Shown here piece by piece: positions 47,573 to 59,915 of a DNA stretch of 64,000 nucleotides (positions are counted from its first letter, which is position 1; every line of letters begins with the position of its first letter). Position numbers and translations under genes: made by a program. A model generated the notes under the pieces. That model worked only from the letters and a program-made list of their open reading frames with translations, was not told the DNA's origin and made no database searches. The stretch is from an uncultured Eubacteriales bacterium (lineage in GTDB: Bacteria > Bacillota > Clostridia > Oscillospirales > CAG-272): assembly GCA_905187695.1 (NCBI GenBank), contig CAJJIY010000003.1, forward strand, positions 4,812-68,811. The letters are read 5' to 3'.

Positions 47573-47594
47573 AAAAAGCCGCCGGGAAAGCGGA

Positions 47595-47612
47595 CTTCTC
47601 ATAAGGATGTTA
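47595..47612. repeat. Left terminal inverted repeat of the element
   Basis: CTTCTCATAAGGATGTTA, the exact reverse complement of 63902-63919. Preceded by GA at 47593-47594. Confidence 0.8.
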
Positions 47613-47827
47613 GAAAATATCCAATGAAAAGCCGATTGAGAGTGCCTAACGAAGAAAATCCATCATGGACAGTAGGTCTGTGATGGATTTTCTTTTTTCA
47701 TCCTTCAAAATTTGCGTCGGGGGAAACAAAGAATAGGCGCGGTGAAAAAATATTTTTATTTTTGAAAAAAGTCTGGACTTCTGCAACCTTCTGTGGTATT
47801 GTTGTGTGCTAACAGGAGGTACAGCCT

Positions 47828-48091
47828 ATGAAAAGCATTATTAACGAACTGTGGCACGGTAACATCATTCCGCAAGAGGACAGCCGAACAAATTCCAATG
47901 AGATGAAGCAACTCCTCAACTATATGGCAAGACATCACGAGGATCTCGAAAAGAGCTTCACGGACAATCAGAAGGAAGCATTCGAAAAGTTCCACGATTG
48001 CTTCAGCGAGTACATGGGCCTCGCTGAAGCTGCCATATTCGAATATGCCTTCAAATTCGGAATTCAAATTGTCGTAAACGCTCTATTGTAA
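47828..48091 (+). CDS. Small helical protein of unknown function (resembles small ORFs common on clostridial mobile elements)
   Basis: 87 aa with an AGGAGG RBS. MKSIINELWHGNIIPQED..; followed by a terminator. Confidence 0.5.
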   Translation: MKSIINELWHGNIIPQEDSRTNSNEMKQLLNYMARHHEDLEKSFTDNQKEAFEKFHDCFSEYMGLAEAAIFEYAFKFGIQIVVNALL

Positions 48092-48097
48092 AGCAAA

Positions 48098-48137
48098 AGC
48101 AAACCAACACGGATTACATAGTCTGTGTTGGCTTGCT
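48098..48137. terminator. Bidirectional terminator between convergent genes
   Basis: 13-bp arms agcaaaccaacac/gtgttggcttgct (12/13 paired), followed by TTTT. Confidence 0.6.
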
Positions 48138-48156
48138 TTTCTAATTTATACTTTGA

Positions 48157-49344
48157 TCAATCAATATTGCCCATCAAATTCACGCAATCGATGATTGCTT
48201 TACCACAAAAATCGAGATTACCATATGCCGTATGCCTTTGAGCTATGATTATAATATCACTATTTTGTATTACCACATTGACATCCATATTAGGAATATC
48301 TGAAATCATGTTCAGCGGAGAATTCACCTCATTAGCTAAAATACGATAGCCTTGATGTTGCAAATATTTGCATAGTGTGATACCACTACTTTCTCTGCAA
48401 TCCTCGCAGTTAGCTTTATAGCTAAGACCTAAAACGCCAATTATCTTCGAACTGTCTTCGCCAATCATCTGAATTGCTTTTTTGGCGATATAAATGGGTT
48501 TATAGTTATTGGCATCACGAGATGCCTTGATAAGAGAGGCATCGTCTCCAAATCTTTCAATTAAAAAATATGGGTCTACAGCTATGCAATGACCGCCGAC
48601 CCCACTTCCCGGTTGGAGAAGATTGCATCTTGGATGACGGTTAGCTATTTCAATCACTCGAAATGGATCAACGCCTTCTCGATCACACATGATGGAAAGT
48701 TGGTTGACAAATGCAAGTTCGACATCTCGATGAGCATTTTGAGTAAGCTTAACAAATTCTGCCGTTGAAATATCTGTTAATTCTTTTCTGCCAGTGTTAA
48801 TAAAATCATATATTTCCTTCGCTTTTTGAGCTGCAATTGGCGTCTTGCCTCCAAGAACGCGCGAGTTCGTTGCAATTTCGTGGAATATATTGCCCGGTAA
48901 AATAGATTCGGGGCAATAGCAATATAAAAAATCAACGCTTTCAGGCACCAAACATCTTAAAAGCTTGTAAAAGTTTTTGTTTGAGCCTATCGGAACTGTG
49001 GATTCCAAAATCACAAGATCTCCGTTTTTGATATGAGGCGCGAGTTCTGTCAGTGCCTTTTCCACAAAAGAATTGTCGGAAGAATAATCTGGATTTACGG
49101 GAGTTTGAACGGTGACGATGTATGTATCAGAATCAGTTATACTATCGGATACGAACAGTGTTTTTCCGAGAACATCATCAAGCGTTGCATCAAGTTCCGG
49201 CTCGGTATATGAATACTTCTTTTGCGTTAAAGTGTTAATCAATGATGGATTTTTATCTACACCAAATACTGTTACACCCGACTTGGCAAATGCACAAGCA
49301 ACGGGCAAACCAACATAGCCAAGACCTATTACGGATATATTCAT
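48157..49344 (-). CDS. wecC: UDP-N-acetyl-D-mannosamine (nucleotide-sugar) dehydrogenase, WecC/Cap5O-like
   Basis: 395 aa. NAD fold ISVIGLGYVGLPVA, plus ESTVPIGS and GGHCIAVDPYF. Confidence 0.85.
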   Translation of the reverse strand: MNISVIGLGYVGLPVACAFAKSGVTVFGVDKNPSLINTLTQKKYSYTEPELDATLDDVLGKTLFVSDSITDSDTYIVTVQTPVNPDYSSDNSFVEKALTELAPHIKNGDLVILESTVPIGSNKNFYKLLRCLVPESVDFLYCYCPESILPGNIFHEIATNSRVLGGKTPIAAQKAKEIYDFINTGRKELTDISTAEFVKLTQNAHRDVELAFVNQLSIMCDREGVDPFRVIEIANRHPRCNLLQPGSGVGGHCIAVDPYFLIERFGDDASLIKASRDANNYKPIYIAKKAIQMIGEDSSKIIGVLGLSYKANCEDCRESSGITLCKYLQHQGYRILANEVNSPLNMISDIPNMDVNVVIQNSDIIIIAQRHTAYGNLDFCGKAIIDCVNLMGNID

Positions 49345-50393
49345 GATTCACCTTCTTTCAAAATTACTTGCACGATTTGCTGCGCCGCATCTCCCTTGCC
49401 GTAATAATCAACATCCATATGTGTGGTTTGACGGCTTAGAAGTGATTTGAATTTACAGCAAAACTCTTCCGTCGGAGAAACAAGCTCCATAAAATCAAAG
49501 TTCGCTTTCCGTTCACTGACTTTACGAACTATCAACAGCTTTTTGGCGTTCAAAATACACTCTTCCTGGACTCCGCCGCTATCGGATATAACAATCTCAG
49601 ATGCAAGAAGCTGCTTGTAAAATTCATCCGAAGGAAGCGGGTTGCAAAGAACAACATTTGCGATACTGCCGAGGTATTTTTGTGCAAGCTTAGTTATAAC
49701 TGGGTTAGGATGTACTGGGAAAAGCCAATTGTAATCAGGATAGTCCTTCGCAAGCTCGGAGATCTGACCTAAGATTTTTTTGAGGTACGGAAGGTTCTCT
49801 CGCCTATGTAAAGTAATCAAAACCTGCTTCTTAACAGTGGATACAAAAGGTTTGTTTTGTGTTCTATAATCAACAAATGTGTTTCCCACAACGTGAATAC
49901 CGTTATCGGAAAAACCTTCTGCTAACAAATTGCGTTTTTCGTCTTCTGATGGACAAAAATGCAATGACGTCATCACAGATATCATACGGCGAAAGCTTTC
50001 TTCAGGATAAGGATTGCTTAAATCATATGTACGCATTCCGGCTTCAACGTGATAGACGGGAATTTGCCTCATGAATCCATATTCCGCTCCTGCCAAAGCA
50101 CTTAATGTATCGCCTTGAACAATCACGGCAAAATAGATGTTTTTTCCAAGAGCTGTATTCATTTGACTGAGCATCGCCGCTTTAGTATCTATCAAATCTT
50201 TGTATTGGCCACAGATGCACAATCTGTAATCAGGCTTAATATCTTCTGTGGTGAGCAGATCGTCGAGGATTGCATCGTGCTGATTTGTGTTCAACAAATC
50301 ATAGGGTATATTGTGATGCTTTAATTCCCTCATAACAGGGATCAATTTAATTGCTTCTGGACGCGTACCGAAAACAACGAGTATTTTGTTCAT
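49341..50393 (-). CDS. wecB: UDP-N-acetylglucosamine 2-epimerase (non-hydrolysing)
   Basis: 350 aa. The N-terminus KILVVFGTRPEAIKLIPV is the WecB signature. 4-nt overlap with wecC. Confidence 0.9.
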   Translation of the reverse strand: MNKILVVFGTRPEAIKLIPVMRELKHHNIPYDLLNTNQHDAILDDLLTTEDIKPDYRLCICGQYKDLIDTKAAMLSQMNTALGKNIYFAVIVQGDTLSALAGAEYGFMRQIPVYHVEAGMRTYDLSNPYPEESFRRMISVMTSLHFCPSEDEKRNLLAEGFSDNGIHVVGNTFVDYRTQNKPFVSTVKKQVLITLHRRENLPYLKKILGQISELAKDYPDYNWLFPVHPNPVITKLAQKYLGSIANVVLCNPLPSDEFYKQLLASEIVISDSGGVQEECILNAKKLLIVRKVSERKANFDFMELVSPTEEFCCKFKSLLSRQTTHMDVDYYGKGDAAQQIVQVILKEGES

Positions 50394-51517
50394 AGTAATT
50401 CCCTAATAAGTCTTTTTTGCTCGTGTGCCTCGGATAAGTAATCGACACTTCGAATTGCTTTTCTTGCTTGCACACTATAATAATCATGGGCTGTACAAAG
50501 CTCTATTAACTTTGATAAAAACGCTTCATGGTTTAAAACAAAGCTGATACCTTCGCCATCCGTTACATACTGCTTTACACATTCGAGATGATCAAAAACA
50601 ACAGTAGGAAGGCCACCTGCCATTCCTTCAAAAATACCTCTGCCATACGTTTCCCAATTGGAAACAGAAATATTGATATGTGCTCTGGCTATGAGTGCGG
50701 CAAGTTCTTTTTGCGGTAGAACACCGTGAAAAATTACTTTTTCGGATAATCCGTTAGCTGTAATATAAGTATGGCAGTCCGAAAGAACAGAATCATTTTG
50801 ATAGCTACCGGCAAGATGTAATCGTACGTCTATTGCGTGTTCAGATAACTCCTTAAGCAAAACAATAGCTTCTTTCGTGTTCTTTTGCTCCTTAATGGAT
50901 GCAATATAAAGTAATTCGATTGGAAAATGTGTTTGTTTTACGACAGGCTTAATATAAGATGAATAACCCCTTGGAATAACCTTGATCTTGTTTTCATCAA
51001 TTCCAAAAACACGAATCATATCCTGTTTTTCCGAATCACTCGGAGTTAAGATCTTGCCTGCGGAACAAAGAGCGCTGCACTCTTCTGCTATGTATTCATC
51101 AGGAGGATATTCTCCCGAGCGCTTATACGATGGAGAAAGATACATTGGAAACAGAACAATCTTGCTTCTTTCTTCTGCCGACAACCGTTCGATTCCAAAG
51201 GCTTTGCTGCAATGAGTTATAATAACCGTGTCATATGCAGCAATCTCTTTTCTCAGGCGTGAAAATAACTGCTCCTTGTTTGCGAGTCTGCGAGCAAACT
51301 TGTCGCTTAAATGATGCTCGTATGTTTCAAAAGAAACCTTTCGAACGCCCTCGATGACTTCAAATCCCTTGCGAGGTGTTCGGGTGAAAATAACATCTAA
51401 AATACAGTTGTATTTTAATGCCTGAATTAAGCTATATATTAAAATGCTTCCGCCGTCGGTATCATCACCAAAGCTTGGGAATTTACCCGTAAAAAGCAGT
51501 ACCTTTTTTAATTCCAT
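50390..51517 (-). CDS. Glycosyltransferase family 4 (GT-B)
   Basis: 375 aa. C-terminal motif ETYGRGIFEGMAGGLPTVVFD. Confidence 0.8.
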   Translation of the reverse strand: MELKKVLLFTGKFPSFGDDTDGGSILIYSLIQALKYNCILDVIFTRTPRKGFEVIEGVRKVSFETYEHHLSDKFARRLANKEQLFSRLRKEIAAYDTVIITHCSKAFGIERLSAEERSKIVLFPMYLSPSYKRSGEYPPDEYIAEECSALCSAGKILTPSDSEKQDMIRVFGIDENKIKVIPRGYSSYIKPVVKQTHFPIELLYIASIKEQKNTKEAIVLLKELSEHAIDVRLHLAGSYQNDSVLSDCHTYITANGLSEKVIFHGVLPQKELAALIARAHINISVSNWETYGRGIFEGMAGGLPTVVFDHLECVKQYVTDGEGISFVLNHEAFLSKLIELCTAHDYYSVQARKAIRSVDYLSEAHEQKRLIRELL

Positions 51518-52602
51518 AACAAAATATATTCCTCAAAAATTCGATCGAAAGAATACATAGTGATGTATTTTTCCGTATTTTGAATCAAAAGTTGTTTTTT
51601 GTTCAGCAGAGTATCAACAGCAACTGCCATCTCTTCTTCCGTATTAACGAGTGCGCCGTTCTCAGCACCGATATATTCGCTGACAGCTCCGCAATTTGTA
51701 ACAACTACAGGAACACCCGAACAGATAGATTCGAGCAGACTTCTTCCCATGCCTTCCGTGTGTATATAGCTTCCGCCCGGCACAGCCTTTTCGAGATCTG
51801 TGCTTGCCTGTGCATAAACATCCGCCGCCGCAATCAAAGCAACCGCATCCTTTTGCGCAAGATTGCCGAGAAAACGAATAGAATAAGGTTGGCTGTTAGC
51901 AAGCTCCTTCATCTCTGCTTCAAGCGGTCCATCACCTGCCAAAAGCAAAGTTACCGTGGCATTACATTTTGCGAGAGAGCGAATCAAAAAATCAGTTCTT
52001 TTATATGGAACAAATCTTGCGCAGCTGACACACAAATAGTCGGACGGTCCAATGCCATATTGTTTGCGAGTATCAGAGCGTTTTGCAATCGCTTCACGAA
52101 TTGTGTAAGGATCAATTCCACCAGCCACATGACGAAGAATAGATTGTTTGATGCCGAACTCAAGCAGCCTCCTGTCGGTAAAGTCACTATTGGTAATTAG
52201 ATAATCAATTGTGTTGTTGATTGCTTCACGCCAATACGCTTTCCTTTCGGCATAAACGGGTATATCAATGGTAAGCGGTGATTGAATAATCTCGTTACCG
52301 CCTGTGCGATAGGTCATTATGGCCGAGGGGAGCAATTCCCGAATGCGGTGCAATTTCTCAATCCAACGACCGCTATTAAAGAACAATACAGTTTTGTCGT
52401 TCTTGAATTTTGGTAAAAAGTCTTCAAGAGTAATATGTTTGATATATTGATAATCGGTATTTAACAAGATGTCTTTCCCATCAAGACGAGAAATGATATG
52501 TAATTCGTATTTGTTCTTGAAATACTGTGCGAAATAATGCGCGTGTGTTTCCATACCGCCTATTAACGGTGGAAGCCTGTCCGCAAAAAGGATTATTTTC
52601 AT
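51508..52602 (-). CDS. Glycosyltransferase family 4 (GT-B; MshA/BshA-like N-terminus)
   Basis: Start at ATG 52602 (MKIILFADRLPPLIGGMETHAHYF). Contains EGMGRSLLESICSGVPVVV. Confidence 0.8.
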   Translation of the reverse strand: MKIILFADRLPPLIGGMETHAHYFAQYFKNKYELHIISRLDGKDILLNTDYQYIKHITLEDFLPKFKNDKTVLFFNSGRWIEKLHRIRELLPSAIMTYRTGGNEIIQSPLTIDIPVYAERKAYWREAINNTIDYLITNSDFTDRRLLEFGIKQSILRHVAGGIDPYTIREAIAKRSDTRKQYGIGPSDYLCVSCARFVPYKRTDFLIRSLAKCNATVTLLLAGDGPLEAEMKELANSQPYSIRFLGNLAQKDAVALIAAADVYAQASTDLEKAVPGGSYIHTEGMGRSLLESICSGVPVVVTNCGAVSEYIGAENGALVNTEEEMAVAVDTLLNKKQLLIQNTEKYITMYSFDRIFEEYILLWN

Positions 52603-53273
52603 AATATCTCCAATTTTCTGAGTGCTACAGAGATTCCGTCCTCTCCGGCAGTCGTTGTAGTGATTGTGGCAACGGCGCAAACCTCTTTGGGCGCGCCTCC
52701 CATTGCTACGGAAATATCGGCACTCTTGAGCATCTCTATATCGTTATATCCATCGCCAAAAGCGATTATGTTTTTTGTGGAAATACCCAATTCGCGGCAT
52801 ACGATACCAAGTCCGTTGGGTTTAGTAATATTTTTAGGTGTAATGTCTATGTTGCCGCTTTGCTCCCATATATACGATTGGTATGCATCGTTAACAACAA
52901 ATCGCTCCTTCGCACAAGGCAACTCCAAAGCATAAATTGTTCCGTCATAAGAATAATCAACCACAGAAACACCGCACGTCTTTGCTTGATGCTTAATATC
53001 TGCGACTATATTTGGGTGGAGAGGTTGCGAAAATACGACACAATCTCCTATTTTTACGAGTCCGCCATTCATTAAAACGAGAAAGTCAAATTGAAATTGA
53101 GCGAGAATCGGCGCAAGCATTTCCTCGGTACGCAATGTGGAAAGCCCGAGAATATAACCTTTTTCTCTCAATGCGTTCAAATCGGAAAGGACTTGATTCG
53201 AAATGAAAATACCGCGCTTTGTTTCAATCAATGTGTTTCCTACGTCAAATACGATTAGCTTTTTGTTTCTCAT
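52599..53273 (-). CDS. HAD-IIB (Cof-like) hydrolase with an atypical motif I
   Basis: 224 aa. IVFDVGNTL occupies the DxDGT position. The C-terminus AFGDGYNDIEML is the Cof-type motif IV. Confidence 0.7.
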   Translation of the reverse strand: MRNKKLIVFDVGNTLIETKRGIFISNQVLSDLNALREKGYILGLSTLRTEEMLAPILAQFQFDFLVLMNGGLVKIGDCVVFSQPLHPNIVADIKHQAKTCGVSVVDYSYDGTIYALELPCAKERFVVNDAYQSYIWEQSGNIDITPKNITKPNGLGIVCRELGISTKNIIAFGDGYNDIEMLKSADISVAMGGAPKEVCAVATITTTTAGEDGISVALRKLEIL

Positions 53274-53976
53274 AGTACTGCTTCAAATTCAAAAATTCAA
53301 TGTTGTTTTTATTTGCGTATGAGATAAGCTCTCCGAGAAAATCCGCCACACCATATGCATTGTTACGTAACTTACGAGCGTCTTCTGCAGAAAGCATACT
53401 GTATCGGGTTGCCGACATAGAATCCTTCAAACGGCGTATTGTTGAAAAATCACAGGAATTTAATACAAGGTGAATTGGATGAAAATTAAACACATAGACA
53501 GCATCTCTATGCATCCTTTTCAAAATATCGTCAAGCCTTGGTACTCCGTGATACTTTAAATATCCTCCGTCTTCAAAGAAAATAGGTATCTGCAAAATAC
53601 CGCATCTATCCCAAAATGGAGCAATGCTTACAAGATCTGTGCAAATATTTGATGCATAGGAAAAGCCACGATTGGCGAATTCCTCCTCAATGTCGTTAGA
53701 AGAATAATATTTATGGCATCTGAATCCAACGGCATCCCCGTAAAATTGTTCAATGGTGGAAAAAACCTCGCTCATGGAACCACCATGCGTGCTTTGAGCG
53801 CAAAAATTAGGGTGAGGTTCAGTCTCCCACCAAGTATTCTCGCACACTGCTTTATCAAGATATTCCGACCTTCCCGTCATGAAAATTGTAAGGGGGAGTT
53901 CTTTTAACGGACGGTATGCAATATCCAAAAAATCATCACTGACAAAATCCACATCCGAGGTTAAAATAAAAGTCAT
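53245..53976 (-). CDS. Putative polysaccharide deacetylase-like (WbmS-like) protein
   Basis: 243 aa. The N-terminus ILTSDVDFVSDDF and overall size recall deacetylase-like proteins of O-antigen loci. The assignment is weak. Confidence 0.35.
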   Translation of the reverse strand: MTFILTSDVDFVSDDFLDIAYRPLKELPLTIFMTGRSEYLDKAVCENTWWETEPHPNFCAQSTHGGSMSEVFSTIEQFYGDAVGFRCHKYYSSNDIEEEFANRGFSYASNICTDLVSIAPFWDRCGILQIPIFFEDGGYLKYHGVPRLDDILKRMHRDAVYVFNFHPIHLVLNSCDFSTIRRLKDSMSATRYSMLSAEDARKLRNNAYGVADFLGELISYANKNNIEFLNLKQYYEKQKANRI

Positions 53977-54884
53977 ACAGTGCCTCCGATGGAATGATAT
54001 TTATCAATCATAGCACGGTCTATTGCGCATTTTTCGGCAAGCTCGTCCCAACCGCAGTAATTGGTTAAAATATCGCTAAGATGCCTTGTGCGCACACCGT
54101 TTTCGATAGTGAAATATTCTATTTTGCCGCTGTGAAGAAGATTAAACATTGTGTCTGTCATTAGCTTGTTATCTTTGAAGGAAAGTTCAATATCAGTATC
54201 CGACAATGCTATGCGAATTTTGTCAGCAATAGCAAAATACTTGTCATCTTCAATGGCATAAACCAAATCCTTTTCAGGTTGACCGTAAGTCATATATTGA
54301 TAGAACTTCCATCTTGACACACGGAATTCCTTGCAGCTTGCGATGTACTCGGCAAGCGGAACAAGACTGTCATAATTCACGGGAGTGATTACGCTGTGCA
54401 ACTTAAGATCAAAGCCTTTAGCAGTGAAATCCGCAAAGCGTTCGCGGAAACGGGAAACATAGTCGCGATACGGCCCCGTATTTCTTCCAATTTTACTTAG
54501 CACCGTCTCGTCAAGTGAATCGAGCGTAATGGTAATTCTATCAACAACGCCAACCAATTGCTCGGTAATATCAGGTGTCAGATTTACAGCATTTGAAAGC
54601 AACTCAACGCGAAGGTTATCTTCCTTGCTCTCGGATTTGAATTGTCGCAAATGACGGATAAGCTCCAAAAAATTCGTATTCTTAACTCCCCCAAGAACGG
54701 TGGGCTCTCCACCCGATATTGTGAGCTTTCTTACATGAAATTTCTCATAAAGATGCGTTACAAGCTCTTTAATCTTTTTCACAGGAAGCTCGGATGCAAT
54801 CGATTCAGGTGTCGTATCACGGAAGCAATAGCCGCAATTCAAGATGCATCTCGGAGTTGTCATATAATAGATGGAATAATACAT
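53973..54884 (-). CDS. Viperin-like radical SAM enzyme (pVip-like)
   Basis: 303 aa. CILNCGYCF is a CxxxCxxC cluster. Segment-by-segment resemblance to viperin/RSAD2: LTISGGEP vs [24 protein letters not shown] vs [27 protein letters not shown] vs [19 protein letters not shown] vs [16 protein letters not shown] vs SNQKMKDS. Confidence 0.65.
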   Translation of the reverse strand: [303 protein letters not shown]

Positions 54885-54892
54885 TTTTACCT

Positions 54893-55462
54893 CTAATCCT
54901 CGATATACAAGTCACAGATCTCACGCATCTGTGCCTTTCTTTCTTCTGTGTGATGATCATTAACGCCGATCACAGTTGCATTCGCCAATTTAGCCGCGAT
55001 GCAATGTTTATAATTGTCGTCTATTAACAAAAGCAAAGGTTGTGAGTAATAAGCCTCATCCTTTCGCTCGTCACCGACAGTAATGATCTCATCAAAAATA
55101 TTGATGTTATAATGTGAAAGCCACTGCCGAACAAGCTCACTTGGTTCTCGGGTGATAATAGTTATTTTACTACCGATAGGCAAAGAGCGAACAGTTGACA
55201 ATACGAGTTCTTTTGGAGCATGCTTGACGTATGCGAGTTTAGCACACTCTAACAGTTCGTTAGCGCATTCTCCAAGTTGGGAGTTGATAAGTCCTTGCCA
55301 TTCTGCAAAGGTACATTTATCGAATGAATCAATTGTTGATACAGAGGGCTGCTGTTTTTTTCGTTCACACAAAAGCAGATATGCCTCTATCCAACAACCA
55401 TTGGAGTCTATGAGCGTGCCGTCGAAATCGACAAGCGTTGTTTTTATGTGTGTTGATATCAT
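54893..55462 (-). CDS. HAD-superfamily phosphatase (canonical DxDGT)
   Basis: 189 aa. Motif I LVDFDGTLIDS and a late LLLIDD motif. Confidence 0.75.
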   Translation of the reverse strand: MISTHIKTTLVDFDGTLIDSNGCWIEAYLLLCERKKQQPSVSTIDSFDKCTFAEWQGLINSQLGECANELLECAKLAYVKHAPKELVLSTVRSLPIGSKITIITREPSELVRQWLSHYNINIFDEIITVGDERKDEAYYSQPLLLLIDDNYKHCIAAKLANATVIGVNDHHTEERKAQMREICDLYIED

Positions 55463-55794
55463 AATTCAACCACCGTAACACCGTTATTGCACACACGCAT
55501 GAGCTGTTCAAGCTCTTGATACTTGTTTTTTAACTCCAAAGCCTTGAAATTAAAGAGAGTAAAGTCCTCACCAAAGATTACGGTCTTGACCTTGCCGTTC
55601 CGCTCCTGTGCTTTCAACCATTGACGGGCTTTTTCGCATATAGCACCGCCTTTTCCGGTGCTTCCGTAGCCATGTATAATTAACACGCACTGACACTTGT
55701 CTCGTTTAAGCTTCACAATAGAATCTTGTAAATATCTCATAGCATCCGCAACCAAAGGCATATCTTGCTTAATATTGATTTCAGTATATTTCAT
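55459..55794 (-). CDS. Smr-like domain protein
   Basis: Start at ATG 55794, 5 nt after a GGAGG RBS. VLIIHGYGSTGKGG and the C-terminal NNGVTVVEL match Smr motifs. The N-terminal LDLHG motif is not conserved. Confidence 0.55.
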   Translation of the reverse strand: MKYTEINIKQDMPLVADAMRYLQDSIVKLKRDKCQCVLIIHGYGSTGKGGAICEKARQWLKAQERNGKVKTVIFGEDFTLFNFKALELKNKYQELEQLMRVCNNGVTVVEL

Positions 55795-55845
55795 AATATC
55801 CTCCGCCAAATCGTATTTGCTTCGGGATACAAATATCCATTAAAA

Positions 55846-55874
55846 ATTATATCACAAAATTATTAACAAATCAA
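55846..55874 (-). promoter_or_regulatory. Extended -10 consensus promoter of the 9-gene cargo operon
   Basis: Minus strand: -35 TTGATT (55874-55869), 17-nt spacer, TGaTATAAT with the -10 hexamer at 55851-55846. Confidence 0.55.
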
Positions 55875-55889
55875 TGTATTTCACAATAC

Positions 55890-55918
55890 TTGACAAATTT
55901 TGCAAAAGGTGCTATAAT
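55890..55918 (+). promoter_or_regulatory. Perfect consensus sigma-A promoter, divergent from the cargo operon promoter
   Basis: -35 TTGACA (55890-55895), 17-nt spacer, -10 TATAAT (55913-55918). Confidence 0.6.
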
Positions 55919-56138
55919 AATCGGCGAGCCATTTGAAGCATCCTTGGCAACAGGGATAGCACGGTGCGTTTTAACGCAGCGCATCGAGCCATTCGGATGG
56001 TGAAATTGAATATTTTCATAAAATCAGATGACCGCTAAAAGCGGTAAAGTAGGTCAATGCGGGGATCTTTGACCGAAACTGTATGTCTCTTAAACAGAGG
56101 TTTTTGTAAAATGTATGAAGAAAGAAATGAGGTACATT

Positions 56139-56462
56139 ATGACACAAAACCGCACCGATTTAGGAAAAGTTGTAGGGGCAAATTTAAGGCGTCTGATTAA
56201 AGGGTCAGCGTACCGTACGCAAGCGGAATTTGCCTATGCATTCGGCGTCGACGAGCGAACCGTCAGAAGATGGGTGAGCAGTGGGATCGAAAAGGTCTAC
56301 ATCATCGACGAAATCGCGCACTTCTTTAAGATAGACCGCATGAACCTCCTCTCAGAACGAGAGGAGGTTTCTCCTTTTTATAGGACAAAACGTGTCCTAA
56401 CACTTTCTCATAATATCTGCTATAATGTTATTCGTCAAAGGCGTTCATTGAAAATAGAATAG
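56139..56462 (+). CDS. XRE-family helix-turn-helix regulator
   Basis: Start at ATG 56139, after a GAGG RBS. LRRLIKGSAYRTQAEFAYAFGVDERTVRRWVSSG fits an HTH_XRE fold. The C-terminal third is doubtful because a terminator-like hairpin lies inside it. Confidence 0.6.
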   Translation: MTQNRTDLGKVVGANLRRLIKGSAYRTQAEFAYAFGVDERTVRRWVSSGIEKVYIIDEIAHFFKIDRMNLLSEREEVSPFYRTKRVLTLSHNICYNVIRQRRSLKIE

Positions 56463-56475
56463 TCGAAGGAGGAGC

Positions 56476-57288
56476 GTGGAATCGACGGATTCCTTTGACA
56501 AAATGTATTATGAGAAAGGAAAAAGATGTATGACAAATAGCAAATATTACAGAGTTGGAGCATTTTTTAGAAGCGAGGATAGCAAGCAGATTATCATTCA
56601 GGTTCATGACCGTAAGGAGGCAGAAGCATGGGTGCCTCGAGTCAAGGAGATGCTCTATCCCGGCGAGAACACAGAAAATTACAGAGTGAGCATTTTTGAG
56701 TTCAAGTTGCAGATAAATCTGAGCAATCTGAACCATTATCGAATCACCGTTGAACGCCCAGTAAAACGCGAGTTTAAGAATTGGGAAGAAGAAAACATCT
56801 ACGATAACTCACTTGCCTTTGATGGCATTGTAGAAGCTGAAGATGAGGAAAGCGCCAAGAGTAAATTTATCGAAGAATGGTTCGAGTTTTATTCACTTGG
56901 TAAAAAGCCGGAAGAGTATGACCTGTATGTAGATGAAGTTCCGGTGAAGGAACTGATTGAAAAGGAGCAAAGAATGCTTCGTCAAAGGCTCATAAGCAGC
57001 TATGCTCGTGATCGTTACGGCGATATGCCGGTTCGAGAATTCTGCAAAATGATGAGGCAGGATGAATCTCCCGAGAAGGATAAGATGTTTTATGAAGAAC
57101 TCAAAAATCATCTGCATCGCCTCCGCATCGTGGAATATCTTGAAAAAAGGTTAGACCTTGAACGGATCACGCACGCAGAGTTCAATCGAATTTGTGACGA
57201 GTTGTGTGCGGCAAAAGTTGGTGACGAATTTGAAAGAATTAAGCGTGCCGCAACTGAGAAATACGGAAAGGAAGGTATAACCGATTGA
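56476..57288 (+). CDS. Hypothetical protein (acidic, helical, no recognised domain)
   Basis: 270 aa ORF with a GTG start after an AGGAGG RBS. Alternative ATG starts at 56503 and 56530. Confidence 0.45.
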   Translation: MESTDSFDKMYYEKGKRCMTNSKYYRVGAFFRSEDSKQIIIQVHDRKEAEAWVPRVKEMLYPGENTENYRVSIFEFKLQINLSNLNHYRITVERPVKREFKNWEEENIYDNSLAFDGIVEAEDEESAKSKFIEEWFEFYSLGKKPEEYDLYVDEVPVKELIEKEQRMLRQRLISSYARDRYGDMPVREFCKMMRQDESPEKDKMFYEELKNHLHRLRIVEYLEKRLDLERITHAEFNRICDELCAAKVGDEFERIKRAATEKYGKEGITD

Positions 57289-57315
57289 AATATTTATTTT
57301 TTGATATAGAGTGTG

Positions 57316-57340
57316 CAGATGGTGGTAAAGCCACCATCTG
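57316..57340 (+). terminator. Hairpin terminator abutting the IS insertion
   Basis: 10-bp stem cagatggtgg/ccaccatctg with a 5-nt loop. The downstream T-run is probably displaced by the IS. Confidence 0.45.
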
Positions 57341-57341
57341 T

Positions 57342-58931
57342 CAGTCTGTCGAAAAACGGTCATCAAGGGAAAGTCGAGAAGGGATTTTTGGAAAATAGAC
57401 GAGAGAAAAAGGAGAAAAAAGCAAAGAAATCGGAGGGATGGTTATCTCTCCACTTTCTTTTTGCGAATTTTTTGAGATTCATGGCAGCAAATTTAAGCCT
57501 TACCCAATTAGAGACTTGGGCGAGGCCGCGGTAGGGTGTATAACGCATCGCGTGTTTTTCTTTTGCATCCGCAAAGACCCGTTCAATGGTTTCTTTGCGT
57601 TGCTTGTAAAGGTCGGCATACTTGGGAGTATAGCGTGCGTCATCGGCAAGCTCTTCGTAATCCTTCCAAATATGCCTTTGTACGACCTTCACAGAATCCT
57701 TGGAATGTGTGCAAAGATGTCTTTTCGGGCAATTCTTACATATTTCGGGATTGCTCTTGTATTCTCTGTATCCGTCTCGATTGGTCGTACTGTATGTAAG
57801 CGTATGGTACTCAGGACAAATGATGCAATCGTAATACTCATCGTATTCGTACTTCCACCATTCGTGTCCGCCGTCCATTGTTTGAGGTCTTTTGTATGCC
57901 GTACTGAGAACACGATTGTTATCAAATACCTTTTTGCAAATATGGGGAGTTTTGTAAGCACTGTCTGCTACAATGGTTTCTACCTCGGGAAACCTTTCGG
58001 TCACTTTTTCATATACGTCATCAAATGCTACGCTATCATGTACGTTGCCGGGAGTTATTATGGTTTCCAGTATATATCCGTGCTTATCACATGCGGTGTG
58101 TGCTTCGTATGCGAATTGTCTTTTGTGGTCGCCTTTTACGAAAAGTCCGCTGTCGGGGTCAGTTACACTTTGGATAACTGTCTTCATCTTTTTGCGGCGA
58201 GCTAATTTCTTCTTTGATGTATTCTTATTCGGCTTTGAGGGTTTGGGAGGCTCATTGTTGTGATGCTCGTCCTCAAACGGCTTTTTGCCGTGCTCCTCTC
58301 GGTCGGCATTGACCTCTTCCATCAGTTCCTTTGCATATCTTTTCGATGCTACGGGTACTTCTGCTTGTATCTTCTTTTTGTTGTTTGCGTTTGCCTTGAT
58401 GTGTGTGCCGTCGATGAATACCGCTGTGGGCGACAGATATCCCGCTTCCGCTATTTCGTTCAAGATCCAAGAAAATATCTGATCCACCGTTTCGCTTGTA
58501 AATCTGTGCCTGAAATTGTAGCTGAGTGTGGAAAAATGAGGCGTTTCATCCTGTAATCCATGCCCCAGAAACCAACGGTACGCCATATTCACTTTTACCT
58601 CTGATGCCGTTCTTCTCAGCGAAGGCAATCCGTACAGATGCTGGATCAACACCATTTTGACCGGCACTACGGGATCAATACTCGGTCTGCCATTGTCTTC
58701 ACTATACAGATCTTCTACCATCCCATAGAGCTTGTCAAAATCTACTGCAGCTTCAATCTTCCTGAGCAGATGATCCTTCGGTACAAGGTCTTCCAATCAT
58801 ACCATTGCCATGATATCTCTTCCGTTTTGCCCCTTGCTTAACATTTCTTCACCGCCTGTCTTTTCTCTCCTCTATTTTACCATATTCTAAGCAAAAAAGC
58901 CACCTTATATGGTGACTTTTTCGACAGTCTG
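57342..58931 (-). mobile_element. IS1182-family insertion sequence (about 1.6 kb)
   Basis: Terminal inverted repeats CAGTCTGTCGAAAAA (57342-57356) and TTTTTCGACAGTCTG (58917-58931) match at 14/15 positions and enclose a single DDE transposase gene. Confidence 0.8.
57363..58796 (-). CDS. IS1182-family DDE transposase (N-terminus interrupted by an in-frame TGA)
   Basis: 477 aa from TTG 58796. LEDLVPKDHLLRKIEAAVDF..RPSIDPVV..YGLPSLRR is the typical IS1182 N-terminal region. 15 further in-frame codons, MLSKGQNGRDIMAMV, lie upstream of the TGA at 58799-58797. Confidence 0.85.
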   Translation of the reverse strand: MEDLVPKDHLLRKIEAAVDFDKLYGMVEDLYSEDNGRPSIDPVVPVKMVLIQHLYGLPSLRRTASEVKVNMAYRWFLGHGLQDETPHFSTLSYNFRHRFTSETVDQIFSWILNEIAEAGYLSPTAVFIDGTHIKANANNKKKIQAEVPVASKRYAKELMEEVNADREEHGKKPFEDEHHNNEPPKPSKPNKNTSKKKLARRKKMKTVIQSVTDPDSGLFVKGDHKRQFAYEAHTACDKHGYILETIITPGNVHDSVAFDDVYEKVTERFPEVETIVADSAYKTPHICKKVFDNNRVLSTAYKRPQTMDGGHEWWKYEYDEYYDCIICPEYHTLTYSTTNRDGYREYKSNPEICKNCPKRHLCTHSKDSVKVVQRHIWKDYEELADDARYTPKYADLYKQRKETIERVFADAKEKHAMRYTPYRGLAQVSNWVRLKFAAMNLKKFAKRKWRDNHPSDFFAFFSFFSRLFSKNPFSTFP

Positions 58932-59103
58932 AGGGTGGGGTTTTTCCCCCAGCCTACTTTTTAAACGAATCTAACATCTCTATGCGGTCTGGATCAAATC
59001 ATCCCAGCCCACTTTTTTGTGTGATTTGGTTGTGGCCCCAAGGGCCACGACCACATTAAAAGTCGAAACATTATGGGCGCTCAAAAAAATTTTGCAAAAA
59101 TAT

Positions 59104-59176: not shown

Positions 59177-59187
59177 AAGGAGAAGCG

Positions 59188-59808: not shown

Positions 59809-59915
59809 CCTTACCTTTCACATAACAGCATCTTTGCCGATTCACAATTGAATATTTCTTTATCTATCGCGCAAAAAACACGATTCATCCTCCCGACCTC
59901 TTAACCGGGAATCAA

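What the first reader, a model, noticed from the sequence alone, without database searches (positions are those of the whole stretch)
48157..55794. Element-borne 9-gene operon coupling a viperin-like radical SAM enzyme to HAD phosphatases, glycosyltransferases and UDP-ManNAcA synthesis, with no export machinery
**Composition, in minus-strand order:**
1. Smr-like protein
2. HAD phosphatase
3. viperin-like radical SAM enzyme
4. deacetylase-like protein
5. Cof-type HAD
6. GT4
7. GT4
8. WecB
9. WecC

Seven of the eight junctions overlap by 4-29 nt and the other is an 8-nt gap, so the genes look translationally coupled. They are driven by one extended -10 promoter.

**What is missing.** There is no Wzx/Wzy, ABC exporter, priming phosphotransferase, chain-length regulator or any membrane protein. 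This argues against an ordinary capsule or O-antigen locus and for a soluble product or an intracellular target.

**Known chemistry.** Prokaryotic viperins make 3'-deoxy-3',4'-didehydro (ddh) nucleotides that act as chain terminators against phage. A GT, a phosphatase and a deacetylase together are also the logic of mycothiol, bacillithiol and aminoglycoside pseudo-disaccharide assembly.

**Hypotheses (inference only).**
- A pathway makes a glycosylated or dephosphorylated ddh-nucleoside, or a ddh-modified nucleotide sugar. It could be an antiviral or antimicrobial small molecule, or a self-protection or storage form of one.
- The nucleic acid itself is glycosylated.

I am not aware of this gene combination having been described.
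Basis: inference. Interest (0 to 1): 0.9.

Follow-up and report, generated by a model that had tools for sequence, protein, structure and literature searches.

The report
Viperin-like sugar-nucleotide operon on mobile element
A small mobile DNA element in a gut Clostridia bacterium carries one tightly packed nine-gene operon that joins a relative of the antiviral enzyme viperin to sugar-activating, sugar-transferring and phosphate-removing enzymes; the same enzyme set recurs next to known anti-phage genes in other gut bacteria and next to an exporter in intracellular symbionts, so it probably makes an undescribed sugar-decorated small molecule, possibly an antiviral nucleoside.

Summary
Nine minus-strand ORFs (48157-55794) have the stated domains and junctions (overlaps of 4, 4, 10, 4, 29, 4 and 4 nt, and one 8-nt gap). 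None has a membrane segment. An extended -10 promoter match sits upstream and a hairpin terminator sits downstream.

The operon is the only cargo of a 16.3-kb integrative mobilizable element (47590-63925). Empty-site genomes and a natural deletion derivative fix its borders.

The radical SAM protein is viperin-like by fold (TM 0.77-0.80) and aligned basic residues. It belongs to a small separate clade below NCBI's viperin cut-off.

A core of rSAM, WbmS-like hydrolase, two GT4s, a Cof-type HAD and WecB/WecC is conserved across phyla, with repeated gene fusions. A second phosphatase comes from three unrelated folds.

Context differs by lineage:
- In Firmicutes and Mollicutes the block sits beside type I RM, Wadjet, Cas9, NACHT or recombinase genes.
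- In about 35 Gram-negative species, mostly intracellular symbionts, it sits with a ComB-like phosphatase (34/35) and often an MsbA-type exporter (13/35).

Best reading: a cytoplasmic pathway to a glycosylated, dephosphorylated, probably nucleotide-derived small molecule, used for defence here. This is inferred, not shown. I found no published description. Interest 0.78; new variant of a known kind.

The parts
47590..63925 (.). Integrative mobilizable element, about 16.3 kb, GC 43.0% against 54.9% in the host. It is inserted into the loop of an intergenic terminator hairpin (attB GCCGCCGGGAAA|CCGGCGGC). The nine-gene operon is its only cargo.
   Evidence: Empty sites in L067, L068 and L071 have 99.3% identical flanks. 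An identical element is found in L070. L069 is a deletion derivative lacking window 48993-60612.
47595..47612 (.). Left terminal inverted repeat of the element, CTTCTCATAAGGATGTTA (attL side).
   Evidence: Sequence comparison of both junctions with the empty site.
63901..63918 (.). Right terminal inverted repeat, TAACATCCTTATGAGAAG (attR side).
48104..48131 (-). Hairpin terminator after the last gene of the operon. It is bidirectional, shared with a convergent 87-aa DUF6809 ORF.
48157..49344 (-). NDP-sugar 6-dehydrogenase, WecC-like (probable UDP-ManNAc to UDP-ManNAcA). The GGHC active-site motif with its Cys is present.
   Evidence: Pfam UDPG_MGDP_dh N, central and C domains. TIGR03026 at 328 bits, above cut-off. 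UDP-ManNAc dehydrogenase equivalog at 306 bits, below its cut-off of 459.
49341..50393 (-). Non-hydrolysing UDP-GlcNAc 2-epimerase (WecB).
   Evidence: TIGR00236 at 251 bits, above the cut-off of 210; PF02350.
50390..51517 (-). GT4 glycosyltransferase 'GT4b'. This is the GT4 that stays with the rSAM in the most reduced variant. In the Gram-negative (symbiont) clade it is fused to a C-terminal HAD phosphatase.
51508..52602 (-). GT4 glycosyltransferase 'GT4a'. Its best solved relative is PimB'. In Mollicutes-type loci it is fused to an N-terminal Cof-HAD.
52599..53273 (-). Cof-type HAD-IIB phosphatase with an atypical motif I, DVGNTL (Asp+2 replaced by Gly).
   Evidence: PF08282 at 129 bits; motif census.
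53245..53976 (-). WbmS-like CE4-related metal hydrolase (putative de-N-acetylase). It immediately follows the rSAM gene in every ManNAcA-type locus.
   Evidence: PF22537. Invariant D8, D10, H55, R86, H88, E135, D136, H166 and H169 in 45/45 sequences. AF2 model pLDDT 91.7; Foldseek match to WbmS (3hft) at TM 0.75.
53973..54884 (-). Viperin-like radical SAM enzyme (C13-x3-C17-x2-C20), member of a small distinct clade.
54893..55462 (-). HAD_2 phosphatase with canonical DFDGTL motif. It acts as the 'second phosphatase' of the Clostridial subclade.
   Evidence: In-frame HAD_2::rSAM fusion in one MAG (P0003 / L014).
55459..55794 (-). Small stand-alone Smr-domain protein (HGxG motif present). It is an accessory, found only in some Clostridial loci.
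55846..55874 (-). Extended -10 sigma-70-type promoter match for the operon.
55890..55918 (+). Divergent promoter with a perfect 12/12 consensus plus TG, driving the 115-aa and 270-aa ORFs.
56115..56462 (+). 115-aa ORF with weak HTH-regulator similarity, transcribed divergently from the operon. It is a possible regulator and is not conserved with the cassette elsewhere.
   Evidence: PHROG regulator families, E about 5e-4; absent in L001.
57363..58796 (-). IS transposase (DUF772 plus DDE_Tnp_1_6) inside the element.
59017..59808 (+). HTH plus S24 peptidase (LexA/CI-like) repressor of the element.
60470..61737 (+). MobC/NikA-like accessory protein (60470-60790) and MobA/VirD2-type relaxase (60751-61737).
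62166..63830 (+). Large serine recombinase (Resolvase, Recombinase, Zn_ribbon_recom, DUF4368) at the right end of the element.
   Evidence: border mapping.

Best explanation
**What it is.** The nine genes are a single operon and the only cargo of a 16.3-kb integrative mobilizable element in a human-gut Clostridia bacterium. The operon is the Clostridial version of a cassette conserved across phyla. The cassette contains:
- a viperin-like radical SAM enzyme
- a WbmS-like hydrolase
- two GT4 glycosyltransferases
- a Cof-type HAD phosphatase
- WecB and WecC
- a second phosphatase

**Proposed pathway.** All steps are inferred.
1. WecB and WecC make UDP-ManNAcA from UDP-GlcNAc.
2. The viperin-like enzyme performs a radical (dehydration-type) modification of a phosphate-bearing substrate, most likely a nucleoside triphosphate, as viperins do.
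3. HAD_2 trims phosphates. In other lineages a ComB-like or a Y_phosphatase3 enzyme takes this role.
4. GT4b glycosylates the still-phosphorylated product, and the Cof-type HAD removes the remaining phosphate. This follows the logic of sucrose-phosphate or mycothiol synthesis.
5. GT4a adds a second sugar.
6. The WbmS-like enzyme de-N-acetylates the aminouronic acid.

The product would be a soluble glycosylated nucleoside-type small molecule made in the cytoplasm.

**Proposed role.** In Firmicutes and Mollicutes the cassette behaves like a defence gene set, so its most likely role here is protection of the host and element against phages or rival elements by a nucleoside analogue. In Gram-negative intracellular symbionts the same core is linked to an ABC exporter, so the product is probably released there.
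For: **Shown**
- Operon anatomy is confirmed and none of the nine proteins has a membrane segment.
- Element borders, empty sites and a deletion derivative are mapped.
- The rSAM model (pLDDT 91) has viperins as its first 18 PDB hits, with TM 0.77-0.80 to mouse viperin bound to CTP.
- The columns of viperin's IGR, K-x-N and WK motifs stay basic and are invariant: R134, K161 and K193 in 45/45 family members.
- Its nearest out-family neighbours are viperin-like proteins scoring 117-166 bits on NF038283.
- The core cassette is conserved in more than 45 loci from Clostridia, Mollicutes, Chlamydiae, Rickettsiales, Holosporales, Cardinium, Mycoavidus, Legionellaceae, Francisellaceae, Myxococcota and Longimicrobium.
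- Fusions link the enzymes into one pathway. These are Cof::GT4a, GT4b::HAD, GT4a::GT4b and a Cof-GT4a-GT4b-WecB giant protein.
- One HAD_2::rSAM fusion also exists.
- A second phosphatase is supplied by three unrelated folds: HAD_2, ComB-like in 34/35 Gram-negative (symbiont-clade) loci, and Y_phosphatase3.
- A variant swaps the sugar (UDP-Galp mutase). It keeps the rSAM, GT4b and a phosphatase, and adds an AAA_18/33 kinase, the kind of partner pVips have.

**Defence or mobile-element context (Firmicutes and Mollicutes loci)**
- Type I RM in three independent loci.
- Wadjet.
- Cas9.
- NACHT protein.
- Helicase-nuclease genes.
- A WYL regulator.
- Recombinases directly adjacent.

**Argument from distribution.** Lineages with entirely different envelopes, including organisms labelled Mollicutes and Acholeplasma, which as a class lack a cell wall (my knowledge, not checked for these MAGs), share the cassette. 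This points to a universal soluble acceptor.
Against: - No product, substrate or phenotype is known for any member.
- The rSAM falls below NCBI's viperin cut-off (83 against 180 bits). It replaces viperin's N-x-H motif with Y-x-M and Asn222 with His (viperin residue numbers are from my memory of the mouse sequence). A different substrate, such as a UDP-sugar as with DesII, or a different reaction is therefore quite possible.
- The defence association is anecdotal: about 12 independent loci, with no background statistics.
- In the Gram-negative clade, the one locus with annotated neighbours (L010) sits among housekeeping genes.
- PADLOC recognises nothing but the rSAM.
- The Cof-HAD of this clade lacks the usual Asp+2 general acid.
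- The HAD_2::rSAM fusion is seen in a single MAG and could be an assembly error.
- WecC is below the equivalog cut-off for UDP-ManNAc dehydrogenase.
- Every enzyme class present, except the rSAM and the phosphatases, is also typical of envelope-glycan loci.
Confidence: 0.42

Rival explanations
1. The chemistry is the same or similar, but the role differs. The cassette makes a nucleoside- or aminoglycoside-like antibiotic or host-directed metabolite that is released and acts on other cells (competitors, or the eukaryotic host of symbionts). It would not be an intracellular anti-phage defence.
For: - An MsbA-type ABC exporter flanks the cassette in 13/35 Gram-negative loci.
- The distribution is dominated by intracellular symbionts and predatory Myxococcota, which rely on secreted molecules.
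- The combination of rSAM, GT, deacetylase and phosphatase recalls nucleoside-antibiotic pathways such as tunicamycin and polyoxin/nikkomycin, with their cryptic phosphorylation (my knowledge, not tested).
Against: - No Firmicutes or Mollicutes locus, including this one, has an exporter or resistance gene.
- Those loci sit in defence islands.
- A self-toxic antibiotic with no immunity gene on a small mobile element would be surprising.
Confidence: 0.22
2. The element modifies an envelope glycan or glycolipid. The cytoplasmic GT4s would add a (modified) ManNAcA-containing branch to a host wall polysaccharide, teichuronic or teichoic acid, or membrane glycolipid precursor, which host machinery then exports. 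This would change phage receptors or serotype, as prophage-encoded glycosylation modules such as TarP or Gtr do.
For: - WecB, WecC, GT4 and WbmS-like enzymes are classical O-antigen and teichuronic-acid components.
- The best solved relative of GT4a is the lipid-acceptor enzyme PimB'.
- MsbA-type transporters, which can flip lipid-linked glycans, lie next to Gram-negative versions.
- Mobile elements often carry receptor-modifying genes.
Against: - None of about 60 loci has a priming transferase, flippase, polymerase, ligase or other membrane protein inside the cassette.
- HAD phosphatase domains fused to the GT4s point to soluble sugar-phosphate-type acceptors.
- The identical core occurs in lineages with unrelated envelopes and in organisms labelled Mollicutes and Acholeplasma, a class that lacks a cell wall.
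- A viperin-like rSAM and two phosphatases have no role in known envelope-glycan pathways.
Confidence: 0.18
3. The pathway glycosylates a macromolecule. Candidates are the element's or host's DNA or RNA (self-marking or anti-restriction) or a protein, with the Smr nuclease domain as a nucleic-acid-binding partner.
For: - Phage GT-epimerase pairs install HexNAc and HexA on DNA bases (bioRxiv 10.1101/2023.12.21.572611).
- GT4b shows weak similarity to the protein O-glycosyltransferases SdgA and SdgB.
- The cassette often lies next to RM systems.
- An Smr-domain gene opens the operon.
Against: - No methyltransferase/TET, ThyS-like or other enzyme that creates a hydroxymethyl acceptor is present.
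- Smr is absent from most loci.
- Two dedicated phosphatases and the HAD-GT fusions are not explained.
- No homologue was found in 50,697 phage records.
Confidence: 0.07
4. The rSAM is an ordinary stand-alone pVip making ddhNTP, and the sugar genes next to it are unrelated neighbours.
For: The rSAM matches PADLOC pVip models at 89 bits.
Against: - The rSAM co-occurs with the same partners, with translational coupling and fusions, in more than 45 loci across phyla and in rearranged gene orders.
- The family is a separate clade, with a score gap from 328 to 140 bits to the next proteins.
Confidence: 0.03

Closest known systems
Prokaryotic viperins (pVips) and eukaryotic viperin (RSAD2): radical-SAM NTP 3'-dehydratases that make ddhCTP, ddhUTP or ddhGTP chain terminators
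   Same: - Same fold, including the C-terminal extension (Foldseek TM 0.77-0.80; the first 18 hits are all viperins).
- Same CxxxCxxC(F) cluster and GGEP SAM motif.
- Same basic residues at the IGR, K-x-N and WK positions.
- Found in defence islands in Firmicutes relatives.
- One variant carries a neighbouring P-loop kinase, as many pVips do.
   Different: - Separate small clade: only about five full-length 50%-identity clusters among 1.84 billion representatives, scoring 83 bits on NF038283 against a cut-off of 180.
- N-x-H before the cluster is replaced by an invariant Y-x-M, and K-x-N by K-x-H. The C-terminal region also differs.
- Always embedded in a multi-enzyme glycosylation and phosphatase cassette, which pVips are not.
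GT4-plus-phosphatase(-plus-deacetylase) small-molecule pathways: mycothiol (MshA, MshA2, MshB), bacillithiol (BshA, BshB), sucrose-phosphate synthase/phosphatase
   Same: - A retaining GT4 acts on a (phospho)acceptor, followed by a dedicated phosphatase and an N-deacetylase.
- GT4-HAD fusion, as in SPS-SPP.
- The Cof protein gives weak S6PP matches.
   Different: - No cysteine ligase, inositol-phosphate synthase or LmbE-type deacetylase.
- The donor is probably UDP-ManNAcA.
- A radical SAM enzyme is an obligatory member.
Nucleoside and aminoglycoside antibiotic pathways that use a radical SAM enzyme (tunicamycin TunB/TunD/TunE, polyoxin/nikkomycin PolH/PolJ, blasticidin BlsE, apramycin AprD4, desosamine DesII). 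The pathway compositions are recalled from knowledge.
   Same: - The combination of rSAM, GT, deacetylase and phosphatase(s) acting on nucleotide or UDP-sugar substrates, with transient phosphorylation.
- BlsE and DesII appear as weaker structural hits.
   Different: - None of the pathway-specific enzymes (TunA exo-glycal synthase, DOI synthase, aminotransferases, acyltransferases) is present.
- The rSAM is closer to viperin than to any of these.
- The Rickettsia buchneri aminoglycoside-like cluster is a different gene set (PMC8770908).
O-antigen and teichuronic-acid loci containing WecB, WecC and WbmS (for example the Bordetella wbm locus)
   Same: WecB and WecC, GT4s and a WbmS-family protein (3hft is the only solved relative).
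   Different: No priming transferase, Wzx/Wzy, Wzm/Wzt, ligase or any membrane protein. HAD phosphatases and a viperin-like rSAM are present instead.
Integrative mobilizable elements of Firmicutes with a large serine recombinase
   Same: - Serine recombinase with DUF4368 at one end.
- MobC plus MobA/VirD2 relaxase, with no T4SS.
- CI/LexA-like repressor.
- Precise insertion with terminal inverted repeats.
   Different: Nothing unusual, except that the cargo is this cassette rather than a resistance gene.

Membership tests
Viperin / pVip (radical-SAM nucleotide dehydratase) | CxxxCxxC [4Fe-4S] motif and GGEP SAM-binding motif | tested here: met
   C13, C17 and C20 and G58-G59-E60 are conserved in 43/45 family members (both exceptions are fragmented ORFs). 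PF04055 scores 66 bits.
Viperin / pVip (radical-SAM nucleotide dehydratase) | Viperin fold, including the C-terminal extension that closes over the nucleotide | tested here: met
   AF2 model with pLDDT 91.2. Foldseek ranks 1-18 are all viperins, with 6q2p at TM 0.77/0.80 over 300 columns. MoaA, BlsE and DesII reach only TM 0.50-0.54 (up to 0.60 for one DesII chain).
Viperin / pVip (radical-SAM nucleotide dehydratase) | Score above the curated family threshold (NCBIfam NF038283 viperin_w_prok, 180 bits) | tested here: not met
   83 bits for the window protein and 104 bits for P0066 of the same family. The PADLOC pVip model gives 89 bits, with no cut-off supplied.
Viperin / pVip (radical-SAM nucleotide dehydratase) | Basic residues that bind the triphosphate (mouse K120, R194, K220, K247; numbering from my memory of the mouse sequence) | tested here: met
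   K/R53, R134, K161 and K193 occupy the aligned columns. R134, K161 and K193 are invariant in 45/45. R245 corresponds to a variable R/K/C/A position.
Viperin / pVip (radical-SAM nucleotide dehydratase) | N-x-H (eukaryotic) or W-N-x-T (prokaryotic) motif just before the cluster, and Asn of the K-x-N motif | tested here: not met
   The family has Y6-x-M8 (M8 invariant in A1) and K161-x-H163 (invariant).
Viperin / pVip (radical-SAM nucleotide dehydratase) | Makes a 3'-deoxy-3',4'-didehydro-NTP and protects against phage | not testable with these tools
   Needs enzyme assays, LC-MS and plaque assays.
Capsule / O-antigen / teichuronic-acid biosynthetic locus | Priming phosphoglycosyl transferase, flippase or ABC-2 exporter, polymerase or chain-length regulator | tested here: not met
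   None is present in the operon or element, and there is no TM segment. None occurs inside the cassette in related loci. An MsbA-type exporter lies next to 13/35 Gram-negative versions.
Mycothiol/bacillithiol-type thiol pathway | GT4, (phosphatase), LmbE-type deacetylase and Cys ligase | tested here: not met
   GT4 and phosphatase are present. The deacetylase is WbmS-type, not LmbE. There is no ligase. BshA and MshA models score only 19-43 bits, far below their cut-offs.
2-deoxystreptamine aminoglycoside cluster | DOI synthase and aminotransferases | tested here: not met
   Absent from the operon and from all related loci. The R. buchneri cluster is different.
Phage-type DNA glycosylation module | An enzyme that creates the 5-hydroxymethylpyrimidine acceptor (MT plus TET, or ThyS homologue) next to the GT | tested here: not met
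   None in the element. Requirement as described in 10.1101/2023.12.21.572611.
Defence-island resident (guilt by association) | Homologues recurrently within about 10 kb of known defence systems | tested here: inconclusive
   Met in most Firmicutes and Mollicutes loci: type I RM three times, plus Wadjet, Cas9, NACHT and helicase-nucleases. There is no background statistic. In the Gram-negative clade the one locus with annotated neighbours (L010, and its copies L011 and L012) sits among housekeeping genes, and no defence gene stood out in the ORF clustering of the others.
Integrative mobilizable element (large serine recombinase type) | Site-specific recombinase, relaxase without T4SS, and a precise insertion with an empty site elsewhere | tested here: met

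The most novel reading that the evidence does not exclude
The cassette would define a new class of immune or protective metabolite: a viperin-type modified nucleoside that is glycosylated with an aminouronic acid rather than used as a bare ddh-NTP. Gut Firmicutes would carry it on mobile elements as an anti-phage system. Obligate intracellular symbionts (environmental Chlamydiae, Rickettsiales, Holosporales, Cardinium, Mycoavidus) would export it through the adjacent ABC transporter into their eukaryotic host cell. There it could act against viruses or competing microbes, giving a chemical basis for defensive symbiosis.
Probability: 0.15. Interest if true: 0.95.

Novelty: new variant of a known kind. 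Interest (0 to 1): 0.78.

Why it matters
Known viperins work alone, or with a kinase, and release a bare chain-terminating nucleotide. Here a viperin relative is locked into a conserved seven-enzyme pathway with sugar activation, two glycosyl transfers, deacetylation and two dephosphorylations.

This pathway travels on mobile elements and sits in defence islands in gut bacteria. It is also kept, with an exporter, by many intracellular symbionts of amoebae, insects and fungi.

If the product is a glycosylated nucleoside analogue, three things would follow:
- It would be a new natural antiviral or antimicrobial scaffold.
- It would extend the chemistry known for viperin-type immunity.
- It would give a testable molecular candidate for symbiont-mediated protection.

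The system is compact (7.6 kb, soluble enzymes only). Natural isogenic controls also exist: strains with the empty site, the full element, and a deletion derivative. It is therefore directly testable.

Tried and rejected
**DNA-level searches**
- Megablast of the block against E. coli genomes, PLSDB plasmids and GenBank phages gave no match.
- tblastn of the rSAM against plasmids and phages gave no match.
- IMG/VR holds a single relative, and it sits beside two serine recombinases.

**Defence and RNA annotation**
- PADLOC recognised only the rSAM, as pVip-like, and nothing else.
- An Rfam gathering scan of 46-64 kb found nothing.

**Candidate known clusters**
- The Rickettsia buchneri 'aminoglycoside' cluster was considered as the known identity of the Gram-negative (symbiont-clade) cassette and rejected. 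It is a different gene set, with PIG-L, KanB and BtrC-like genes.
- The viperin evolution preprint (10.1101/2023.09.13.557418) mentions no glycosyltransferases or phosphatases.
- The phage DNA-glycosylation preprint needs 5hmC-forming enzymes that are absent here.

**Literature**
Seven bore on this gene combination and none found a description; some searches were look-ups of viperin papers.
- The papers listing viperin's CTP-binding residues (PMC7920147, PMC8672371) are not held. The residue correspondence therefore rests on tool alignments plus numbering from my memory of the mouse viperin sequence.

**Readings rejected on evidence**
- Capsule or O-antigen locus.
- Mycothiol-like thiol pathway.
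- 2-DOS aminoglycoside cluster.
- 'Plain pVip with unrelated neighbours'.

Full report
**1. The observation**

The region 48157-55809 holds nine consecutive minus-strand ORFs.
- WecC-like NDP-sugar dehydrogenase (48157-49344)
- WecB (49341-50393, above the TIGR00236 cut-off)
- two GT4 glycosyltransferases (50390-51517, here 'GT4b'; 51508-52602, 'GT4a')
- a Cof-type HAD-IIB (52599-53273)
- a WbmS-like PF22537 protein (53245-53976)
- a radical SAM protein (53973-54884)
- a HAD_2 phosphatase (54893-55462)
- a small Smr-domain protein (55459-55794)

Further checks:
- The junctions are overlaps of 4, 4, 10, 4, 29, 4 and 4 nt plus one 8-nt gap.
- No protein has a hydrophobic stretch compatible with a membrane helix.
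- A TTGATT-17-TGnTATAAT promoter match lies 52 nt upstream of the Smr ATG, which has a GGAGG ribosome-binding site.
- A hairpin followed by a T-rich tail lies 26 nt after the last stop codon.

The promoter is a positional consensus match only. The region as a whole has no excess of such matches over shuffles.

**2. It is cargo of a precisely delimited mobile element**

The block lies in a stretch of about 40% GC within a host region of 55-60% GC. The low-GC segment also encodes an IS transposase, a CI/LexA-like repressor, MobC, a MobA/VirD2 relaxase and a large serine recombinase.

Looking up the host gene just left of the segment returned three kinds of contig with the same host synteny:
- Some lack the whole segment (L067, L068, L071).
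- One is 99.99% identical to the window (L070, from a human-gut metagenome).
- One is a deletion derivative (L069).

Alignment places the element at about 47590-63925, giving 16.3 kb at GC 43.0% against 54.9% in the host. It is inserted in the loop of an intergenic terminator hairpin (GCCGCCGGGAAA|CCGGCGGC) and has imperfect 18-bp terminal inverted repeats. L069 lacks window 48993-60612, that is, the operon, the IS, the repressor and MobC.

There is no T4SS, so this is an integrative mobilizable element. The nine-gene operon makes up 47% of it and is its only cargo.

**3. The operon is a variant of a cassette conserved across phyla**

The rSAM has only 65 clusters of relatives among 5.8 billion proteins. 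A full HMM scan of 1.84 billion representatives found about five full-length 50%-identity clusters at 328-457 bits, and then a gap down to 140 bits.

Contexts and a species-level genome scan give more than 45 loci. A phmmer census of the nine components shows a conserved core:
- rSAM followed directly by the WbmS-like gene
- GT4a and GT4b
- a Cof-type HAD
- usually WecB and WecC

Smr and HAD_2 occur only in a Clostridial subclade.

The core is found in Clostridia (Oscillospiraceae, Ruminiclostridium) and Mollicutes/Acholeplasma, with the rSAM at 46-99% identity. At 33-38% identity it is found in about 35 Gram-negative species:
- environmental Chlamydiae
- Rickettsiaceae
- Holosporales, Caedibacter and Paracaedibacter
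- Cardinium
- Mycoavidus
- Legionellaceae and Francisellaceae
- Myxococcota
- Longimicrobium
- one Rhodocyclaceae

Gene fusions tie the enzymes into one pathway:
- Cof::GT4a (L004, L007, L017, L061)
- GT4b::HAD, in nearly all full-length loci of the Gram-negative clade
- GT4a::GT4b (L006)
- a 1,300-residue Cof-GT4a-GT4b-WecB protein (L016, L060, L062, L065)
- one HAD_2::rSAM fusion (P0003 / L014; a single MAG, so it needs caution)

A second phosphatase is supplied by three unrelated folds:
- HAD_2 in Clostridia
- a ComB-like PF04029 protein, encoded convergently right after the WbmS-like gene in 34 of 35 Gram-negative loci
- Y_phosphatase3 in L058, L062 and L065

A reduced variant (L058/L059) keeps the rSAM, GT4b and a phosphatase. 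It replaces WecB and WecC with a UDP-galactopyranose mutase, and it adds an AAA_18/33 kinase, a Citrate_ly_lig-family protein and a WYL regulator.

**4. The radical SAM enzyme**

- Its best NCBIfam match is viperin_w_prok at 83 bits (cut-off 180). MoaA follows at 59 bits.
- PADLOC pVip models give 81-89 bits.
- The best PDB sequence hits are fungal, cnidarian and mouse viperins.
- An AlphaFold model (pLDDT 91.2) has viperins as its first 18 Foldseek hits, with TM 0.77/0.80 to mouse viperin bound to CTP. SuiB, SkfB, NifB, DesII, MoaA and BlsE follow at TM 0.50-0.64.
- The nearest proteins outside the family all have viperin_w_prok as their best model, at 117-166 bits.
- Alignment with those neighbours and with solved viperins shows the cluster cysteines, GGE, N98 and D122.
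- It also shows R134 (in IGRNTG), K161 (in KLHSV) and W192-K193 (in WKFYQ) in the same columns as viperin's IGRGQG, FKINSV and RWKVFQ. R134, K161 and K193 are invariant in 45/45 family members.

By my recollection of the mouse sequence these correspond to R194, K220 and K247, residues that hold the triphosphate. That attribution is from memory, because the structural papers were not available.

Family-specific differences are Y6-x-M8 in place of N-x-H, H163 in place of Asn, and a different C-terminal region.

Conclusion: this is a viperin-like enzyme that very probably binds a phosphate-rich, nucleotide-type substrate. It is not a member of the curated pVip family, and its reaction is unknown.

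**5. The other enzymes**

- The WbmS-like protein keeps an invariant D-x-D, His, R-x-H, E-D, H-x-x-H constellation in 45/45 sequences.
- Its model (pLDDT 91.7) matches WbmS (3hft) at TM 0.75. It matches CE4 polysaccharide and chitin de-N-acetylases more weakly.
- WbmS itself is only a putative deacetylase from a locus that builds an N-acetylated aminouronic-acid polymer (my knowledge). That fits a ManNAcA substrate.
- HAD_2 has the canonical DFDGTL motif.
- The Cof-HAD of the Firmicutes and Mollicutes clade has D(V/I)GNTL, so it lacks the Asp+2 general acid. The fused HAD of the Gram-negative clade has the canonical SD(F/Y)DGTL.

**6. Genomic company**

*Firmicutes and Mollicutes loci.* The cassette sits:
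- beside a tyrosine integrase, an SMC/AAA_21 ATPase, HsdR and a Macro-domain gene (L001)
- between a DUF4011 helicase-nuclease and a type I RM system (L004, L005, L017)
- after a type I RM system and a UvrD-like helicase (L006)
- before Cas9 (L057)
- after a complete Wadjet JetABCD plus RelB (L060, L016)
- after a NACHT protein (L015)
- among helicases, methyltransferases and PDDEXK proteins (L062)
- directly next to serine recombinases (L058, L061)

Two loci show nothing telling (L064, L065).

*Gram-negative clade.*
- The one locus whose neighbours were annotated (L010, with its copies L011 and L012) sits among housekeeping genes.
- The flanks of the other loci were compared only by ORF clustering.
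- An MsbA-type ABC exporter (ABC_membrane plus ABC_tran, about 590 aa) lies within 4 kb in 13 of 35 loci.

None of these loci places the cassette inside a capsule, O-antigen or teichoic-acid locus.

**7. How it most likely works**

*Shown:*
- the gene set
- its coupling, conservation and fusions
- the viperin-like fold
- the element borders and the neighbourhoods

*Inferred, from three lines of argument:*
- The same core works in organisms with unrelated envelopes, including lineages labelled Mollicutes and Acholeplasma, a class that lacks a cell wall (my knowledge). The acceptor must therefore be a universal soluble metabolite.
- HAD domains are fused to GT4s in both orders, and a second phosphatase has been recruited three times. 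This points to a substrate that carries more than one phosphate and is glycosylated while still phosphorylated.
- The rSAM keeps viperin's phosphate-binding residues. It stays with GT4b even when the sugar pathway is swapped and a kinase is added.

The simplest scheme that fits all three is:

NTP → (rSAM) modified, ddh-type nucleotide → (HAD_2, ComB-like or Y_phosphatase3) trimmed nucleotide → (GT4b, then HAD) glycosyl-nucleoside → (GT4a with UDP-ManNAcA from WecB and WecC) → (WbmS-like enzyme) de-N-acetylated product.

An alternative order has the WbmS-like enzyme deacetylating UDP-ManNAcA, and the rSAM then performing a DesII- or AprD4-like radical elimination on the amino sugar. This cannot be excluded, though the WbmS-less variant argues against it as the general rule.

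On biological role, the mobile-element cargo position and the defence-island company in Firmicutes make anti-phage or anti-element defence the best guess here. The exporter in symbionts suggests release of the product there.

**8. Comparison with what is known, and novelty**

The system works like a viperin pathway extended by a mycothiol- or sucrose-phosphate-type GT4-phosphatase-deacetylase module. It recalls rSAM-containing nucleoside and aminoglycoside antibiotic pathways. It fails the membership tests for each of the following:
- pVip
- envelope-glycan loci
- thiol pathways
- 2-DOS aminoglycosides
- phage DNA glycosylation

Seven bore on this gene combination, and none found a description of it. 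The library lacks most subscription journals, so absence of a description is not proof. I rate it a new variant of a known kind.

**9. Limits**

- There is no experimental evidence for any member.
- The defence association has no statistical background.
- The substrate assignment rests on homology and gene-fusion logic.
- The residue numbering for viperin is from memory.
- One of the fusions is seen in a single MAG.
- The host is known only as an uncultured human-gut Clostridia bacterium (L013, L070).

Noticed in passing
window 47578-47612 and 63901-63936; loci L067, L068, L071 (empty sites): The element integrated into the loop of a bidirectional intergenic terminator hairpin, between a 281-aa gene and a P-type ATPase gene. 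This splits the hairpin. The two arms are now 16.3 kb apart, so termination of both flanking host genes may be altered.
   Followed up: partly
L069 compared with window 48993-60612: A natural derivative of the same element, at the same site, has lost 11.6 kb. The loss runs from inside WecC to just before the relaxase and leaves a truncated WecC. The cargo is therefore dispensable for maintaining the element, and natural isogenic controls exist. I did not examine the deletion end points for repeats.
   Followed up: partly
window 55890-55918 (+), 56115-56462 (+), 56476-57288 (+): A perfect 12/12 sigma-70 consensus promoter with a TG extension lies back-to-back with the operon promoter. It drives a 115-aa ORF with weak HTH-regulator similarity and a 270-aa ORF with no detectable family. 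This may be a regulator pair for the operon. It is not conserved with the cassette in other elements.
   Followed up: partly
window 52599-53273; loci L001-L017: The Cof-type HAD of the whole Firmicutes and Mollicutes clade has motif I D(V/I)GNTL, with Gly in place of the Asp+2 general acid/base. The homologous fused HAD of the Gram-negative clade is canonical (DxDGTL). The substitution is conserved, so it is selected. It may indicate a substrate with a good leaving group, or a non-phosphatase role.
   Followed up: partly
L057 8762-9985; L064 2234-3454: Some Clostridial versions carry a second, unrelated radical SAM gene (406-407 aa, with only a weak PF04055 match) inserted between HAD_2 and the viperin-like rSAM. 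This suggests further chemical diversification of the product.
   Followed up: no
L058 and L059: A reduced variant cassette contains a UDP-galactopyranose mutase, the rSAM, GT4b, a 127-aa unknown protein and Y_phosphatase3. Upstream lie a Citrate_ly_lig-family protein (692 aa), an AAA_18/33 kinase, a truncated NDP-sugar dehydrogenase and a WYL/WCX regulator. The whole set sits next to a serine recombinase.
   Followed up: partly
L010-L012 (3848-4942 in L010), L049 12342-13715: In one chlamydia-like lineage a TagF-type CDP-glycerol glycerophosphotransferase gene directly precedes the cassette. In a Legionellaceae MAG a second UDP-glucose-type dehydrogenase sits between the ComB-like gene and the ABC exporter. 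Neither is conserved across the clade.
   Followed up: no
L006 and L062 (fused GT4 proteins): The precomputed Pfam annotation lists weak hits to PF20706 'GT4-conflict' for the fused GT4s of two loci. By its name this is a GT4 family defined from biological-conflict systems. The window's own GT4s do not reach E 0.01 for it.
   Followed up: no
window 36486-40420: The host chromosome about 7 kb left of the element encodes a nucleoside-salvage (deo-like) cluster: purine nucleoside phosphorylase, phosphopentomutase, cytidine deaminase and pyrimidine-nucleoside phosphorylase. It is present in empty-site genomes too, so its proximity to a putative nucleoside pathway is probably coincidental.
   Followed up: partly
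window 45177-46661: A BspA-type leucine-rich-repeat protein gene is listed as a 494-aa ORF here but called as 429 aa in the related contigs. This is probably only a start-codon choice.
   Followed up: no
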